A DNA stretch of 32,702 nt. Origin: a virus. Made by a program: the position numbers and the translations under genes. Location: UHGV virus genome UHGV-1394528. One strand, 5' to 3'. The notes beneath the pieces are model-generated. The model was given only the letters and a program-made list of their open reading frames with translations. It searched no databases and had not been told where the DNA came from. Below are positions 19,520 through 24,297 of this stretch, piece by piece (the stretch's first letter is position 1; each line of letters starts with the position of its first letter).

Positions 19520-19957
19520 TTATAGCCTCCAAGTTTTAGCTTTCAACACACCGTGCACTGCTGACACACTCACGCCAAGGCTGGCAGCTATAGCCGGTAT
19601 ACCGTGCTCCCTGCCGTACCGTCTGTAGTTCTCCCTGATATAGCCCACCTGTTGCTCCGTTAGCTTGGAGTACCCATTATGCTCTCCTTTAGAAACCCCG
19701 CGTTTAGCCCTACCCCTGGCAATACAGTCATGGACGTTATCCTTGACCGTACCTAATTCTAAATGCTCGGGATTAATGCATCTCGGGTTGTCACACTTAT
19801 GGCGCACAACTAGCCCCACTATGCTCTCCGGAGATATATCGTTCGCCGAGCAATACACCTTTCTATGCAGGGGTATCTTCCGCCCTTTGAACGTGGTATT
19901 TCCGTAACCCTTTGGTCCGCCTTTCTGTTTGTGCTCTTTACACGCGCCTAATACCAT
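19520..19957 (-). CDS. HNH homing endonuclease
   Basis: VVRHKCDNPRCINPEHLELGTVKDNVHDCIARGR motif plus C-terminal HTH-like segment; sits between primase and helicase genes, overlapping primase 3' end by 20 nt. Confidence 0.8.
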   Translation of the reverse strand: MVLGACKEHKQKGGPKGYGNTTFKGRKIPLHRKVYCSANDISPESIVGLVVRHKCDNPRCINPEHLELGTVKDNVHDCIARGRAKRGVSKGEHNGYSKLTEQQVGYIRENYRRYGREHGIPAIAASLGVSVSAVHGVLKAKTWRL

Positions 19958-20729
19958 CTAATAACTCCTGTATTGTTGCCTCTTTTGGGTCCCCGTCGTA
20001 GTAGATTTCGTGGCACGACATAAAGGGACGTAGCGCGCGCCGTATCATGGCCGCGCCGGAGTGTCCCGCTTGGTCATTATCCAGGGACAGTATCACTGTC
20101 GGTTTGTTCTGTATCAGCCACGCCCTTAACTGCACGGGCAAGCGAGTACCCAGCATAGCTATAGCCTGCACGTTCATTGCAGAGTAGTTCGTAATCGCGT
20201 GCTGATATTTGATCGCTGATAGATAGTCCTCGGTGAGCACGACCTTTAGAGGTGCGGCCGCAGCTACATCCGGCGCTACGGCAGGTGCCGCGGCAGCGAA
20301 CGGCATTGGCTGGCCGTACATTACCCACTTCGGTTGCTGTCGGGCATGCACTGCACGGCCCAGAGCAGCGCTTCCGACACGGAATATTATCCGCTGTTTC
20401 TCTTTGCTCCATTCTGCATCCTCCACCATTTCAGGCATGATTCCCTTTGTGGTCAGGAATCCGTAAAGAAAACTCTGCGTTTCCGCAGGCGCTTGGCTAA
20501 TGCAAATTGCATCTGCAGGTGCAGAGGGCTGCACCCTCGGCTCTTCCTGTAACTGTATGCGCTGGTACTGCTTGTGCTCCTTGCCCACCTGTTTGCAGCG
20601 GTGGCAATAATATTCCCAGGCATCCGGGTTATTGTAGAGCACCCCGGCGGCGTCCCTGCCGCAGCACCGAAAGCGCGCCCTCTGCCCAACGGCCAGGCGC
20701 TTGCACGCTCTAAGCCAGGGCTGGTCCAT
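19938..20729 (-). CDS. DNA primase (zinc-ribbon + TOPRIM)
   Basis: Cys4 zinc ribbon (FRCCGRD...YCHRCK) followed by TOPRIM-like VVLTEDYLSA ... SLDNDQAG. Confidence 0.7.
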   Translation of the reverse strand: MDQPWLRACKRLAVGQRARFRCCGRDAAGVLYNNPDAWEYYCHRCKQVGKEHKQYQRIQLQEEPRVQPSAPADAICISQAPAETQSFLYGFLTTKGIMPEMVEDAEWSKEKQRIIFRVGSAALGRAVHARQQPKWVMYGQPMPFAAAAPAVAPDVAAAAPLKVVLTEDYLSAIKYQHAITNYSAMNVQAIAMLGTRLPVQLRAWLIQNKPTVILSLDNDQAGHSGAAMIRRALRPFMSCHEIYYDGDPKEATIQELLDGIRRV

Positions 20730-21181
20730 TACTGAATCTCTCGCTTAACTTTCATAGCCATTCGACGAATGTCATGTGCCAACTGCAGGGCTGAATCGGG
20801 GCTCATATTAATACCAATCTCTCGCTCTGCCCGGGTGCTGCCTTTTCTAGGCACTATTCCGATGTATAGTAGTCCTTCGTTAGTCTCGCTGTCCTTTTCT
20901 AATACCAGCCGCTGGTCGTTTCCTGGGTCTCGTTTAGTGTTTAAATATGCTACACTAGACGGAACCGGTGGCAGCTCGTCCGCCTCCTCGATTAGCTGCC
21001 AGAAGTCGGCAGAGCCGCCATAGATATCCCCGGCATAATGAATCCCTGCGCCTTCGGTTAGCTTGGTGTCTATATAGAGGCCAGGCCCCTTAGTGACTAT
21101 CTCGCCGCGCACGGTCTTACCTTCAATCTTATTGATGCGCTGAACCTTATCACCTACTTTAAAAAGTTTAGACATAATCAA
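20729..21181 (-). CDS. hypothetical protein, 150 aa
   Basis: Track ORF; N-terminal KVGDKVQRI...GKTVRGEIV (SH3/KOW-like pattern); overlaps both neighbours. Confidence 0.5.
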   Translation of the reverse strand: MIMSKLFKVGDKVQRINKIEGKTVRGEIVTKGPGLYIDTKLTEGAGIHYAGDIYGGSADFWQLIEEADELPPVPSSVAYLNTKRDPGNDQRLVLEKDSETNEGLLYIGIVPRKGSTRAEREIGINMSPDSALQLAHDIRRMAMKVKREIQ

Positions 21182-22230
21182 CCCTCCACAATATTATCGT
21201 ATCCGCCCCAGTCTTCTACGACTCGGGTGCCTAGTTCAATCAGTTCTTCTTTAAAGCCGTAATCGGAGAACACCATTATGTACTCCGCCGCCTTCTCTGG
21301 ATTCTCCTGTACCCAGCTAACCAGTTGTTGTTTAGAAAGCTGCGATACTTCCCGGAACGCGGCCAGTAACTGCGGGTCCTCGTCCGGCGGCATATCCCAC
21401 GGCTGCCGTAAACTGAGCGTCGATGCAGCGGGCCACTGGCATAGGTCTGGCTCTGCTACTGCCGGGTCCCGCTCAATAGGGAGGTGCGAGAACGTGCCGT
21501 CTTGTAGTACCCGCTCAAGCACCTGGCCCAGTATGTTCAGGTCCAGCACCTCATCCGGGGTGTGCTCGTGCATGTACCCTACACCGACGTTGGTGCACTC
21601 AGGGATGATGCCGACGAACTCGGCTGAGTCAGTATACACACCCTTTTGTAAGTGCTGCTCCGTGCGTCCTAGGCGCTCTGCCAGAGTCTTGGCAAAGGTA
21701 TCAGAGCAGCAGCGCATGTACCGCTGGTGCGTAATGATACCATCTCCGCGGCGGTCAAAGCTAATCATCGCCTTGACACCAGTCCAAAATCCAGTGTCAT
21801 CCTTGACCGATGCAGCGCTGCCTTCGCAGCCCACCTCTTCATCCACGAAGAAGCAGTAGCGTCCGCGCACACCTCGCCGCAGCATCTCCAGCATCAGGTA
21901 GATACCGGCGCCGCAGTCTGCGCCCAAGCAGTCAGCTTGCTGCGGATTCTTTACGAACAGTACACCCTTGTTAGTGCAACCAACGTCCGGCGCGGCGCTG
22001 GTTGGTCGGGCCACCGTATCGAGGTGCGAAGTAAACGCAACGTCGCTTTGCTCTGAGCCCCCCGCCAGCACGAAGTAGTTCCCGTGCTTGTCCTTTACGT
22101 AGTGCATATCACTACCCAGCGCCCACTCAAGCAGCGGCTCAAACCACTTAGTGCTACCCCAGCTAGGCCGGTGCGTTTGTAGTATCTGCAAGAGCAGCTG
22201 CATATCAATCCCGTGCGGATTCAAGAACAT
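21178..22230 (-). CDS. M28/M20-like (clan MH) zinc metallohydrolase-like protein
   Basis: Metal-ligand pattern in canonical order and spacing: H69-x-D71 (HLDTV), D105 (GADCGAG), E131-E132 (DEEVG), D158/D162, H220/H222 (GYMHEH); about 120-aa C-terminal extension. Confidence 0.55.
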   Translation of the reverse strand: MFLNPHGIDMQLLLQILQTHRPSWGSTKWFEPLLEWALGSDMHYVKDKHGNYFVLAGGSEQSDVAFTSHLDTVARPTSAAPDVGCTNKGVLFVKNPQQADCLGADCGAGIYLMLEMLRRGVRGRYCFFVDEEVGCEGSAASVKDDTGFWTGVKAMISFDRRGDGIITHQRYMRCCSDTFAKTLAERLGRTEQHLQKGVYTDSAEFVGIIPECTNVGVGYMHEHTPDEVLDLNILGQVLERVLQDGTFSHLPIERDPAVAEPDLCQWPAASTLSLRQPWDMPPDEDPQLLAAFREVSQLSKQQLVSWVQENPEKAAEYIMVFSDYGFKEELIELGTRVVEDWGGYDNIVEG

Positions 22231-23912
22231 TAAGCTGCCTCCTCTGCTTCTTCTTCATCTTCATCGTTGCCCAGGTACTTCTCTCCCAAGCAATCAGCTG
22301 CATGCTCAGTGAGAATTAACCCGTGCACTGGGTGTTCTTCTGCGTGCTCAATAAGCACTTGCCGGTCCTGTGCAAACACCAGTTCCTCTTGGTCGTGCAC
22401 TACACCCTCTACTGCGCAGCGCTCTATGTCCTCGTCGTATACATAGGCGTCGTGGTAATCAGACCAGGTGCAGCTCCAGCGATTATGCAGACCATCACGC
22501 CCAACTACGTACACAAAATCCCCTTCTTCTACGCAGCCGTCGCAGACCATATCACCATCTGCGGTCTCCTGCATGTCATCTACAGAGTAGCGACATTCAC
22601 AGCAGCAGCACCGAGCAGACTCAGTGCCTACGTAGATGTATCCTTCTGAGTCTTGTGCCTCGTACCCATAAGCATCACGGATTACAAAGGCATCATCCCC
22701 ATACTCATCTACGCCGCACTGGCTGCTATCTAGGTATGGCATCAGCACTGCGCCGTTGTATGTTGGGTGCGGTATTCGCGCCAGCATTACCCCTTCGAGA
22801 CATTCAATGTTTTTGGTGTACCTATGCCCCCGCAGGATTGCATCCGCAGCGTTGCCGTAAGCGCGGACGTACTCGTTAGTTTCTGTGTTAACGATTGCCC
22901 GTGCCTGCACTTCGAAATCGTCGCCGAACAGCTCCCCGGTGTACTGGATGAACAGGCGCAGCCCATTATCCGGCAACCCGTGGCTGGTGGTAGCGTACGT
23001 CCGCACAGAGCTATGCTCAAATGAGTACCCGCTCATGCAGCTACCCGGGCCATTCTCGTAGGCGTCGTACCATTCCTGCTCGGTCTTGCACAGGTACGTT
23101 GTAGGGTCTACGTTCATAGCCTTGAGGTCTTCGATAGCATCGCGGAAGTCCACACCATTTCCGTAGTAGTTAGCGAGCCACTTACCTACGCGCATCTCTA
23201 CGCAGCGGTACTCAGTAACTGCTGCGAAGTCCTTGTGCATCCGCGGCTGCCCCAGCATCACGATAGGTTCGCCGTTGCGGAAACCAAAGCCCAAAGGCAC
23301 GGCGAATCTAGACACTACGAAGCCGTGCAACTTCATGAGCAGCGCAGCTAAGTTGCCATCGCGGGTGTGGCGGCCGTAATCGTAGCCAGTGTATAAGCGG
23401 CGCTGCTGCTCTTCTGGTGCAAGCATGATGCGCTCAAATAACTGCACGGCCTGCTTGTGCACCTTGTAACCTGTGAATTCTTCGACGCAAGCAACTACGC
23501 GCTCAACCACTACATCCTCGCCCTCATAGAAGTCGCGGCGGCGTTCCCAGAACTTGCTGTCTATGGTGATTCGCACCGGTTCAAAGAGTTCGCAGAAAGT
23601 TCCGGACCGGTACAGGTCCACCTTTTGCAACGGGCCGAGCGTCATCGTTGATTCGCGATACTCTGGGTGCAGTGCCCCGCCTATAGTCACCTCTAAGCCT
23701 GGAGTGTGCGCACTGACAGTGCGGAGACCCATAAGCACCTGCAGCGGACCCTCAGTGTGGGGATGGTCCTCCCCTTGCATTTGCAAGTCCTGGAACGGGG
23801 TCCAGTAATCACCGCTGGAATACATTGATTCTTTAATCGGCAGTGCGTTTGCACCTTCCGGTAACACTACTTTCCATTCGATAGGTGCTGTGTTAGTTTC
23901 TTGCATTTTCAT
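22230..23912 (-). CDS. large hypothetical protein with Cys cluster and acidic C-terminal tail
   Basis: Track ORF 22230..24200 (656 aa) trimmed to Met97 (ATG 23910-23912, SD GGGAG); the first 96 codons are Ser/Leu/Pro-rich and overlap the more protein-like 114-aa ORF. Contains CCCCECRY...CDGC and C-terminal NDEDEEEAEEAA; stop overlaps next ATG (TAATG). Confidence 0.6.
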   Translation of the reverse strand: MKMQETNTAPIEWKVVLPEGANALPIKESMYSSGDYWTPFQDLQMQGEDHPHTEGPLQVLMGLRTVSAHTPGLEVTIGGALHPEYRESTMTLGPLQKVDLYRSGTFCELFEPVRITIDSKFWERRRDFYEGEDVVVERVVACVEEFTGYKVHKQAVQLFERIMLAPEEQQRRLYTGYDYGRHTRDGNLAALLMKLHGFVVSRFAVPLGFGFRNGEPIVMLGQPRMHKDFAAVTEYRCVEMRVGKWLANYYGNGVDFRDAIEDLKAMNVDPTTYLCKTEQEWYDAYENGPGSCMSGYSFEHSSVRTYATTSHGLPDNGLRLFIQYTGELFGDDFEVQARAIVNTETNEYVRAYGNAADAILRGHRYTKNIECLEGVMLARIPHPTYNGAVLMPYLDSSQCGVDEYGDDAFVIRDAYGYEAQDSEGYIYVGTESARCCCCECRYSVDDMQETADGDMVCDGCVEEGDFVYVVGRDGLHNRWSCTWSDYHDAYVYDEDIERCAVEGVVHDQEELVFAQDRQVLIEHAEEHPVHGLILTEHAADCLGEKYLGNDEDEEEAEEAA

Positions 23913-23952: not shown

Positions 23953-24297
23953 TCAGCGTGCGTACCACGCGGAGAGTTGTTGCTGCTTATAATAGGCGCG
24001 GACTGCGGCTCTAAATTGCTTAAAAGCTCCGCGGTATCCATTCCGCCGTAGTGCTGCAACCACATCGAATGCAATGTGCTCTTGCAGCTTCCGCGCGGCA
24101 GACTCAGTGTACTCTCGATAGGTTGTGAGAACAGTGCCAATATCCTCTTTTCTAACTCGGAGTAATCGACGCTCAACTGGCACGATTTGCTTGAGTTCAT
24201 TAGGAACCTCTTTGAATGTTTCCCAAGTGCAACCGCACTTGCCCTGCGTTTCCAGCAGACGCCAGCACAGCAGCGCTGTTTCGTCTACTGTGAGCAT
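23953..24297 (-). CDS. hypothetical protein, 114 aa
   Basis: Track ORF, charged K/E/R-rich composition. Confidence 0.45.
   Translation of the reverse strand: MLTVDETALLCWRLLETQGKCGCTWETFKEVPNELKQIVPVERRLLRVRKEDIGTVLTTYREYTESAARKLQEHIAFDVVAALRRNGYRGAFKQFRAAVRAYYKQQQLSAWYAR

What the first reader, a model, noticed from the sequence alone, without database searches (positions are those of the whole stretch)
21178..23912. Coupled pair: M28/M20-like metallohydrolase and a large Cys-cluster, acidic-tail protein
The 350-aa protein carries the clan MH ligand pattern (H-x-D, D, EE, D, H) in canonical order, which I do not recognise as part of the standard T7/phiKMV core gene set. Its start overlaps the stop of a ~560-656 aa protein with no recognisable motif apart from CCCCECRY...CDGC and a C-terminal DEDEEEAEEAA tail. 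The pair lies between the early ORFs and the primase, a position where such phages usually carry host-takeover or anti-defence functions. This is the best candidate in the window for an undescribed functional module.
Basis: partly seen in the sequence, partly recalled or inferred. Interest (0 to 1): 0.7.

Follow-up and report, generated by a model that had tools for sequence, protein, structure and literature searches.

The report
Conserved phage peptidase and unknown-protein pair
Two neighbouring genes of a KP34-like Klebsiella phage, an intact zinc peptidase and a large acidic zinc-finger protein of unknown function, form a gene pair kept together across very distant phages, so they almost certainly work together, although what they do is still unknown.

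Summary
The window is a Drulisvirus (KP34-like Klebsiella podophage) with its genes on the minus strand.

ORF 21178-22230 (350 aa) is a single-domain M28-type di-zinc hydrolase. H69, D105, E131/E132, D159 and H223 are invariant in 56 homologues.

The upstream gene is 560 aa (start 23912), not 656 aa. The longer reading overlaps a better-conserved 114-aa gene in another frame.

The large protein has no Pfam, NCBIfam or PADLOC match. It has:
- a four-Cys zinc finger;
- acidic beta-hairpin repeats;
- a tail ending in Ala-Ala.

The peptidase lies directly downstream of the large gene in 12 of 16 lineages sampled, some only 25-35% identical. In one more it lies 1.3 kb downstream.

Neither gene is new. 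KP34 gp10/gp11 have been listed as hypothetical protein and "putative peptidase" since 2011, and both were detected by mass spectrometry in phage fHe-Kpn01.

Function is unknown. My best reading is a two-enzyme module acting on a protein or peptide substrate. Interest is moderate.

The parts
22230..23912 (-). Large acidic protein, 560 aa (KP34 gp10 / fHe-Kpn01 gp12 homologue; phrog_6980). In 560-aa numbering: variable N-terminal region (1-200); three long strands plus helices (205-270); conserved core (~262-430) with S291-C292-M293, Y306, R338, Y348-x-R350-x-Y352-G353 and P392-Y393-x-D395; zinc finger C435-x2-C438...C457-x2-C460; about five acidic beta-hairpin repeats (463-537); tail DEDEEEAEEAA.
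21178..22230 (-). M28-type di-zinc hydrolase, 350 aa (KP34 gp11 / fHe-Kpn01 gp13; phrog_4191). Catalytic domain 1-255 with H69, D71, D105, E131, E132, D159 and H223; low-confidence linker 260-285; phage-specific helical C-terminal domain 286-350.
22228..22250 (-). Coupling junction GAGGAGGCAGCTTAATG. The Shine-Dalgarno sequence of the peptidase gene lies in the Glu-Glu codons of the upstream tail, and TAA and ATG share one base.
   Evidence: the same junction occurs throughout Drulisvirus
23953..24297 (-). Separate 114-aa gene (KP34 gp09 / fHe-Kpn01 gp11), basic (pI 9.6). It is a conserved upstream neighbour of the large gene, also in Vibrio phage AL-1 and contig L006. Its presence shows that the 656-aa reading of the large ORF is over-extended.
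20729..21175 (-). Downstream 148-150-aa gene (phrog_4317; fHe-Kpn01 gp14). The likely start is ATG 21175 after GGAGGG. It is conserved only among closer relatives, so it is probably not part of the deep two-gene module.

Best explanation
The two genes form a phage-restricted two-protein module. It is expressed from the pre-replication (early-middle) operon and is made in coupled amounts.

Protein B is an active, single-domain M28-type di-zinc exopeptidase or amidohydrolase. It carries an extra phage-specific helical C-terminal domain.

Protein A is probably an enzyme too. Its ~200-aa core has a near-invariant Ser-Cys-Met, an Arg, Y-x-R-x-Y-G and P-Y-x-D. These are conserved more strictly than its own zinc-finger cysteines. 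The core shows a weak GNAT-like (acyl- or aminoacyl-transferase-like) fold. It is followed by a zinc finger and a very acidic beta-hairpin and tail region that could engage a basic partner.

Proposed mechanism: A and B act on the same substrate, or as a complex. A would bind or modify a host or phage protein or peptide target through its Cys-containing core. B would hydrolyse a terminal peptide or amide bond of that substrate or product.

Shown: intact hydrolase site, domain anatomy, conserved adjacency, expression.
Inferred: that A is catalytic, that A and B share a substrate, and that the substrate is a protein or peptide.
For: Hydrolase:
- Pfam M28 hit above threshold.
- Foldseek matches to PepT, TET and DapE at E = 4e-11 to 1e-8.
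- All ligands invariant.
- Ligand spacings of 36/27/27/64 residues leave no room for an M20 lid or an M42 PDZ-like insert.

Large protein:
- 255 cluster representatives in an exhaustive HMMER search, sharing the region 330-570 in 656-aa numbering.
- R338 and Y352 are invariant; S291, C292, M293, Y306 and D395 are at least 90% conserved over 136 sequences.
- AF2 pLDDT is 84, and 90-98 in the core.
- Foldseek gives a weak hit to a phage N-acetyltransferase domain.

Coupling:
- TAATG overlap.
- The peptidase is directly downstream in 12 of 16 lineages sampled, counting the window itself, at 25-35% identity. These include a non-T7-like contig with Prim-Pol and SNF2 genes. It is 1.3 kb downstream in one more.

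Expression: fHe-Kpn01 gp12, gp13 and gp14 were detected by LC-MS/MS (PMC7291057).
Against: - No activity, complex or substrate has been shown.
- The GNAT signal is weak (Z no higher than 6.3). No Pfam or PDB sequence profile supports it. The model has no helix where GNAT alpha4 would be.
- Adjacency could reflect co-regulation rather than a shared substrate.
- Two contexts carry only one partner: L006 and L072.
- No A-B fusion was found among 279 and 120 homologues.
- Tight coupling in this window also extends to the next gene and to the primase, so it is not specific to the pair.
Confidence: 0.3

Rival explanations
1. Protease-substrate or timer pair. The peptidase trims the exposed acidic C-terminal tail of the large protein (...EEAEEAA-COOH). 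The terminal Ala-Ala would act as a ClpX-type degron or as a docking element, and trimming would control the large protein's stability or activity.
For: - 48 of 136 divergent homologues end in -AA and 74 of 136 end in -A, although the preceding tail is not alignable.
- Tails are acidic: 4.9 D/E against 1.2 K/R in the last 20 residues.
- AA is kept in L069 and L070, where no downstream gene overlaps the stop, and the Ala codons differ between lineages (GCA GCT, GCT GCA, GCA GCA).
- Terminal Ala-Ala is the critical element of ssrA-like ClpXP degrons (PMC10862746).
Against: - Homologues ending in -VSP, -EPQ, -APL and -EDEE still have the peptidase directly downstream.
- Acidic residues upstream of Ala-Ala do not fit the tags that PMC10862746 found most effective, which were neutral or positively charged and moderately hydrophobic.
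- M28 enzymes are mostly aminopeptidases (general knowledge).
- Within Drulisvirus the tail codons double as the ribosome-binding site and spacer of the next gene, which could by itself hold GAG GAG GCA GCT constant.
Confidence: 0.12
2. The large protein is a non-enzymatic acidic decoy or nucleic-acid mimic. It would sequester a basic host protein, for example a restriction or defence nuclease or a nucleoid protein. The peptidase would have a separate role such as peptide turnover for amino-acid supply.
For: - pI is 4.6, and the last 160 residues carry a net charge of -37.
- The family median pI is 4.8.
- The gene lies in the early-middle region, before replication genes.
- One GenBank record (KPPK108.1) calls the homologue a 'putative DNA mimic protein'.
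Against: - The most conserved part is the near-neutral core with S-C-M, R, Y and D, not the acidic region.
- This reading does not explain why the peptidase stays adjacent over deep divergence.
Confidence: 0.12
3. Replisome accessory. The large protein would work with the primase, helicase and polymerase encoded just downstream. Its acidic C-terminal tail would contact the polymerase, as the tails of T7 gp2.5 and gp4 do.
For: - The module sits directly upstream of a primase, primase-helicase or Prim-Pol gene in many contexts.
- The protein has a zinc finger and an acidic tail.
Against: - No OB fold, primase, helicase or other DNA-binding fold was detected.
- The protein is strongly acidic overall.
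- A peptidase partner has no obvious role at a replisome.
- T7 and phiKMV replicate without this pair.
Confidence: 0.08
4. The two proteins are packaged in the virion and delivered on infection.
For: The GenBank notes for fHe-Kpn01 gp12, gp13 and gp14 say 'verified experimentally in LC-MS/MS analysis of phage particles to be virion-associated'.
Against: - That study counted 29 of 56 gene products as virion-associated, using a threshold of two unique peptides and 5% coverage. That is far more than the nine structural proteins predicted from the KP34 genome (PMC3082699), so carry-over of abundant non-structural proteins is likely.
- The genes lie in the early-middle operon, far from the structural module.
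Confidence: 0.06

Closest known systems
Peptidase family M28 (clan MH), e.g. Aeromonas/Vibrio proteolyticus aminopeptidase and Streptomyces griseus aminopeptidase
   Same: - Same alpha/beta fold.
- H, bridging D, catalytic E plus ligand E, D and H in the canonical order.
- Single catalytic domain without a lid or PDZ-like insert.
- Pfam PF04389 hit above threshold.
   Different: - Cytoplasmic phage protein; I saw no obvious signal peptide or pro-region, but did not run a predictor.
- Only about 12-17% identity to solved structures.
- Adds a phage-specific ~65-residue helical C-terminal domain.
- Substrate unknown.
M20 and M42 relatives (PepT, DapE, ArgE, LysK; TET aminopeptidases)
   Same: - They are the best structural matches (3gb0 PepT E = 4e-11; TET1 E = 1e-10).
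- Same metal-site logic.
- These families include deacylases that undo N-acylation, a role that would pair naturally with a GNAT-like partner.
   Different: The protein lacks the M20 dimerisation/lid domain between the fourth and fifth ligands (only 64 residues there). It also lacks the M42 PDZ-like domain between the first and second ligands (only 36 residues there).
GNAT-fold acyl- and aminoacyl-transferases, including FemA and ATE1-type enzymes
   Same: - The order of secondary-structure elements (strand, two helices, three strands, helix) fits the N-terminal half of the GNAT fold.
- R350-x-x-G353 sits at the junction of a strand and a helix, where GNAT motif A lies.
   Different: - No sequence-profile support.
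- The sixth motif position is not conserved.
- No helix at the alpha4 position.
- The near-invariant S-C-M has no GNAT counterpart that I know of.
KP34 gp10/gp11, PhiM1_09/PhiM1_10, VP93-type and fHe-Kpn01 gp12/gp13 gene pairs
   Same: These are orthologues or homologues of the window's pair, in the same order and at the same position before the primase. They are listed among the proteins conserved within the KP34-like and PhiM1-like phage groups.
   Different: None of them has an assigned function. Many database entries give the large protein as 654-656 aa, which is probably about 96 codons too long.
ssrA-like C-terminal degrons (ClpX recognition)
   Same: Terminal Ala-Ala with a free carboxylate, recurrent across the family.
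   Different: The upstream residues here are acidic, not hydrophobic or neutral. Degradation was not tested.

Membership tests
Peptidase M28 (clan MH) | Zn-exopeptidase alpha/beta fold | tested here: met
   The AF2 model (pLDDT 83) matches PepT, TET, DapE, SGAP and LapA structures with probability 1.0 at E = 4e-11 to 1e-7.
Peptidase M28 (clan MH) | Profile match above the curated threshold | tested here: met
   PF04389 scores 22.4 bits against a cut-off of 21.3, E = 1.1e-4, and covers only residues 56-164. This is marginal.
Peptidase M28 (clan MH) | Co-catalytic metal ligands H, D (bridging), E, D, H plus a catalytic Glu, in canonical order | tested here: met
   H69, D105, E131/E132, D159 and H223 are invariant in 56-57 homologues. 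The PepT alignment places H69-x-D71, GAD105 and H223 on the corresponding PepT motifs.
Peptidase M28 (clan MH) | Single catalytic domain with no inserted lid or PDZ-like domain | tested here: met
   Ligand spacings are 36, 27, 27 and 64 residues, and the fold is continuous over 1-255 in the model.
Peptidase M28 (clan MH) | Metal-dependent exopeptidase activity | not testable with these tools
   Needs purified protein and substrates.
Peptidase M20 (PepT/DapE/ArgE/LysK) | Dimerisation/lid domain inserted between the fourth and fifth metal ligands | tested here: not met
   Only 64 residues lie between D159 and H223. NCBIfam PepT-like scores 17 bits against a cut-off of 274, and LysK 11.9 against 363.
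GNAT acyltransferase superfamily (core of the large protein) | GNAT fold | tested here: inconclusive
   [not shown]
GNAT acyltransferase superfamily (core of the large protein) | Motif A, R/Q-x-x-G-x-G/A, between beta4 and alpha3 | tested here: inconclusive
   R350 and G353 are at least 90% conserved and lie at the junction of strand 347-353 and helix 356-362. The sixth position varies (A, T or N).
GNAT acyltransferase superfamily (core of the large protein) | Sequence-profile match to any acetyltransferase family | tested here: not met
   No Pfam hit for the query, for 10 distant homologues, or for 35 isolated cores at E up to 10. A profile search of PDB sequences gave only zinc-finger noise.
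Zinc ribbon / LIM-like four-Cys finger | CxxC-x(16-25)-CxxC conserved across the family | tested here: met
   C435, C438 and C457 are at least 90% conserved over 20 divergent homologues. All four, including C460, are invariant in the 13 closest. In the 35 isolated cores the fourth Cys is invariant and the other three are at least 90% conserved. There are weak LIM and RING hits.
ssrA-like ClpX degron | Terminal Ala-Ala-COOH | tested here: met
   The window protein ends ...AEEAA, and 48 of 136 homologues end in AA.
ssrA-like ClpX degron | Favourable (hydrophobic or neutral) residues upstream of Ala-Ala, and ClpXP-dependent turnover | tested here: not met
   The upstream residues are E-E-A-E-E. 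PMC10862746 reports that the most effective tags were neutral or positively charged and moderately hydrophobic, and that Ala-Ala alone is not sufficient. Turnover cannot be tested here.
DNA-mimic anti-restriction proteins (Ocr/ArdA type) | Structural similarity to a known mimic and a DNA-like array of surface charge | tested here: not met
   [not shown]
PHROG 4191 / PHROG 6980 | Full-length profile match | tested here: met
   phrog_4191 E = 1e-153 over 6-349; phrog_6980 at 1363 bits over 1-655.

The most novel reading that the evidence does not exclude
The large protein defines a new, phage-restricted enzyme family: a Cys-dependent transferase or ligase on a divergent GNAT-like scaffold. Together with its obligate M28 hydrolase partner it would carry out a so-far undescribed covalent modification cycle on a host protein, peptide or aminoacyl substrate at the onset of phage replication. 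That would be a new host-takeover or counter-defence chemistry shared by many podophage lineages.
Probability: 0.15. Interest if true: 0.8.

Novelty: new variant of a known kind. Interest (0 to 1): 0.42.

Why it matters
Drulisviruses are among the phages most often isolated and used against Klebsiella pneumoniae. These two genes are listed among their conserved proteins, yet nothing is known about their function.

The pair is a deeply conserved module found well beyond this genus: in Vibrio, Shigella and Escherichia phages, and in many uncultured phages including non-T7-like ones. Pectobacterium, Pseudomonas and Caulobacter phages carry structural relatives of the large protein, and PhiM1-type Pectobacterium phages are reported to carry the peptidase. 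That makes it a well-defined, tractable target.

There is an intact hydrolase to assay, a short list of near-invariant residues to mutate, and a clear genetic prediction: the deletion phenotypes of the two genes should be linked.

The work also corrects a widespread start-codon error. Most database entries give the large protein as 654-656 aa, and it should be about 560 aa.

Tried and rejected
Searches on the large protein that found nothing:
- Pfam, NCBIfam and PADLOC: no hits.
- phmmer and a profile search against PDB sequences: only zinc-finger noise.
- Pfam on 10 distant homologues and on 35 isolated cores at E up to 10: nothing consistent.
- A profile search of the 5.8-billion-protein index with the core alignment: only 22 unnamed hits, with no informative domain fusions.
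- Foldseek against BFVD: only uncharacterised phage proteins.
- A pattern scan of one genome for each of 185,579 species: no cellular relative.

Searches that failed technically:
- The afdb50 library was not available.
With a closer alignment it returned almost only Drulisvirus loci.

Ideas rejected:
- The 656-aa reading of the large ORF.
- The toxic Gp10 of fHe-Kpn01 as the homologue. It is a 69-aa protein; the homologue is gp12, which was excluded from that toxicity screen.
- A fusion of the two proteins anywhere in the sampled families.
- A link between an -AA tail and presence of the peptidase.

Literature searches for a Drulisvirus transcriptome or for functional work on the peptidase found nothing relevant.
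Full report
**What the window is.** The segment 21178-24200 matches 241 phage records at 80-95% nucleotide identity. Nearly all are Klebsiella phages of the genus Drulisvirus (Autographiviridae, Slopekvirinae), the KP34 group. Genes run on the minus strand. The order is: small early ORFs, a 114-aa gene, the large gene, the peptidase, a 150-aa gene, primase, an HNH endonuclease, helicase, DNA polymerase. No convincing promoter or terminator separates these genes, and the counts do not exceed those in shuffled sequence.

**Checking the observation.** Both ORFs exist as described.
- The junction is GAG GAG GCA GCT TAA TG. Stop and start share one base, and the peptidase's ribosome-binding site lies in the Glu-Glu codons of the upstream tail.
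- The stated end of 23912 is the correct start of the large gene, and the 656-aa alternative is wrong. ATG 23912 follows a GGGAG site.
- The 5' extension to 24200 overlaps, in another frame, a 114-aa ORF (23953-24297) that is much better conserved in phages JKT1 and Hope.
- Among five aligned phages, the variable sites in the overlap fall on codon position 3 of the 114-aa frame (63 sites, against 29 and 24). That position is codon position 2 of the 656-aa frame.
- KP34 (gp09, 114 aa) and fHe-Kpn01 (gp11 of 114 aa, gp12 of 556 aa) are annotated in this way.
- Most database entries nevertheless carry the version of about 655 aa.

**The 350-aa protein.**
- It matches PHROG 4191 ('peptidase', E = 1e-153) and narrowly passes Pfam Peptidase_M28.
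- In an alignment of 56-57 homologues down to about 33% identity, H69, D71, D105, E131, E132, D159, D201 and H223 are invariant.
- A PepT alignment places the HxD, GAD and final His motifs on their PepT counterparts.
- The AF2 model (pLDDT 83; above 90 over most of 1-255) matches PepT, TET aminopeptidases, DapE catalytic domains and Streptomyces and Aspergillus aminopeptidases with probability 1.0.
- The spacings between ligands (36, 27, 27 and 64 residues) leave no room for the M20 lid or the M42 PDZ-like domain. The protein is therefore M28-like in architecture.
- Residues 286-350 form a helical domain that is conserved among the phage homologues only.

**The large protein (560-aa numbering).**
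- It matches PHROG 6980 (unknown function) and nothing in Pfam, NCBIfam, PADLOC or PDB sequences.
- An exhaustive HMMER search found 255 cluster representatives. They share the segment that corresponds to about 235-475 in this numbering.
- Over 136 of them, R338 and Y352 are invariant. Y285, G288, S291, C292, M293, Y306, L360, P392, Y393, D395, G424 and C435 are at least 90% conserved.
- The zinc-finger cysteines (C435-x2-C438...C457-x2-C460) are conserved. The CCCC run is specific to this lineage.
- AF2 gives pLDDT 84, and 90-98 across the core and the C-terminal region.
- For the lead: the order of secondary-structure elements fits the N-terminal half of a GNAT, and the nearly invariant R350-x-x-G353 lies where motif A would be.
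- Against it: there is no helix at the alpha4 position and no profile support.
- After the finger come about five 15-residue beta-hairpin repeats. The last 160 residues carry a net charge of -37, and the protein's pI is 4.6.
- 48 of 136 homologues end in Ala-Ala and 74 end in Ala, although the tails do not align.

**Is the pair a unit?** Beyond Drulisvirus, I looked at the genomic context of distant homologues of either protein (25-35% identity).

| Context | Loci |
|---|---|
| Peptidase directly downstream of the large gene, usually with overlapping stop and start | Vibrio phage AL-1 (L005), L007, L057/L061, L065, L066, L067, L069, L071, L075, L076, L077 |
| Peptidase 1.3 kb downstream | L070 |
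| Order reversed, with only a weak match to the large protein | L073 |
| Only one partner present | L006 (large gene only), L072 (peptidase only) |

With the window's own Drulisvirus lineage, that makes 12 of 16 lineages sampled with the peptidase directly downstream.

- L077 carries Prim-Pol, PD-(D/E)xK and SNF2 genes, so the module is not confined to T7-like genomes.
- No fusion of the two proteins was found.
- A pattern scan of 185,579 species genomes found no cellular relative.
- The 114-aa gene is a further conserved upstream neighbour in AL-1 and L006. The 150-aa downstream gene is conserved only among closer relatives.

**What is already known.**
- KP34 gp11 was called a putative peptidase in 2011 (PMC3082699).
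- KP34p10 and KP34p11 are listed among the proteins conserved in 'Kp34likevirus' (PMC4411677).
- PhiM1-like phages carry a conserved early-region peptidase next to conserved hypothetical proteins (PMC6115819).
- In fHe-Kpn01, gp12, gp13 and gp14 were detected by LC-MS/MS in particle preparations and were therefore excluded from a toxicity screen (PMC7291057). Twenty-nine of 56 products passed that lenient threshold. I take this as proof of expression rather than proof of packaging.
- GenBank calls the large protein 'hypothetical' almost everywhere. One record says 'putative DNA mimic protein' and one says 'peptidase'.

**Interpretation.** Three things are solid. There is an intact M28-type hydrolase. 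There is an uncharacterised partner family with enzyme-like conservation. Their adjacency is very persistent.

The most economical reading is a two-enzyme module, or complex, acting on one substrate. That substrate is most likely a protein or peptide, given the nature of the hydrolase, the zinc finger and the acidic region (confidence about 0.3).

The rival readings are these.
- **Tail trimming or degron control.** The Ala-Ala recurrence supports it. It is weakened because homologues without the Ala-Ala tail keep the peptidase, and because acidic residues upstream of Ala-Ala do not fit the tags found most effective for ClpXP (PMC10862746).
- **Acidic decoy or mimic.**
- **Replisome accessory.**
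- **Packaged proteins.**

None of these can be excluded with the tools available here.

**Verdict.** The metallohydrolase call is right. The pair is a genuine conserved module of unknown function, but it is a long-catalogued 'known unknown' rather than a new discovery. Interest is moderate.

Noticed in passing
window 23953-24200 (minus strand): The frame that extends the large ORF to 656 aa stays open for about 96 codons across phages only 60-75% identical (JKT1, Hope), although codon-position statistics show it is not the selected frame. Most public gene calls (654-656 aa) use the over-long start.
   Followed up: yes
window 19520-19957 (minus strand): An HNH homing endonuclease (Pfam HNH_3; phrog_6254) sits between the primase and helicase genes. 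Relatives lack it there or carry HNH genes at other positions: NTUH-K2044-K1-1 has none annotated in the stretch examined, JKT1 has one before the primase, and Hope has one after it. It looks like a mobile insertion.
   Followed up: partly
window 22233-22250 (minus strand): The codons for the terminal E-E-A-A of the large protein (GAG GAG GCA GCT) are identical at the nucleotide level in most of the Drulisvirus loci examined. They also form the ribosome-binding site and spacer of the peptidase gene, so protein-level and RNA-level constraints are confounded here.
   Followed up: partly
window 21173-21181 (minus strand): The 150-aa ORF is listed with a TTG start that overlaps the peptidase stop. 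An ATG at 21175, six bases after GGAGGG, is the more likely start (148 aa), which would leave a 2-nt gap instead of an overlap.
   Followed up: no
L072 5059-5457: In a 57-kb metagenomic phage contig where the peptidase homologue has no large-protein partner, a RimB-like (PF05618) gene lies about 0.5 kb upstream. As I recall it, RimB acts on the poly-glutamate tail that RimK adds to ribosomal protein S6. Given the acidic tails seen here, this may be worth a look.
   Followed up: no
window 21178-22230, residues 333-342 of the peptidase: The peptidase's own C-terminus contains VEDWGGYD, which resembles the EDWGE tail of the amino-group carrier protein LysW (recalled from memory). NCBIfam gave a very weak hit to LysW-lysine hydrolase (E = 0.1). 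This is probably coincidence.
   Followed up: no
window 23953-24297 (minus strand): The 114-aa basic protein (pI 9.6) is a conserved upstream neighbour of the large gene in Vibrio phage AL-1 (29% identity) and in contig L006. It may belong to the same functional unit.
   Followed up: partly
GenBank OK583892 (KPPK108.1) and PV231795 (henu-LMZ): These records annotate the large-protein homologue as 'putative DNA mimic protein' and as 'peptidase' respectively. The second is probably a label that slipped over from the neighbouring gene.
   Followed up: no
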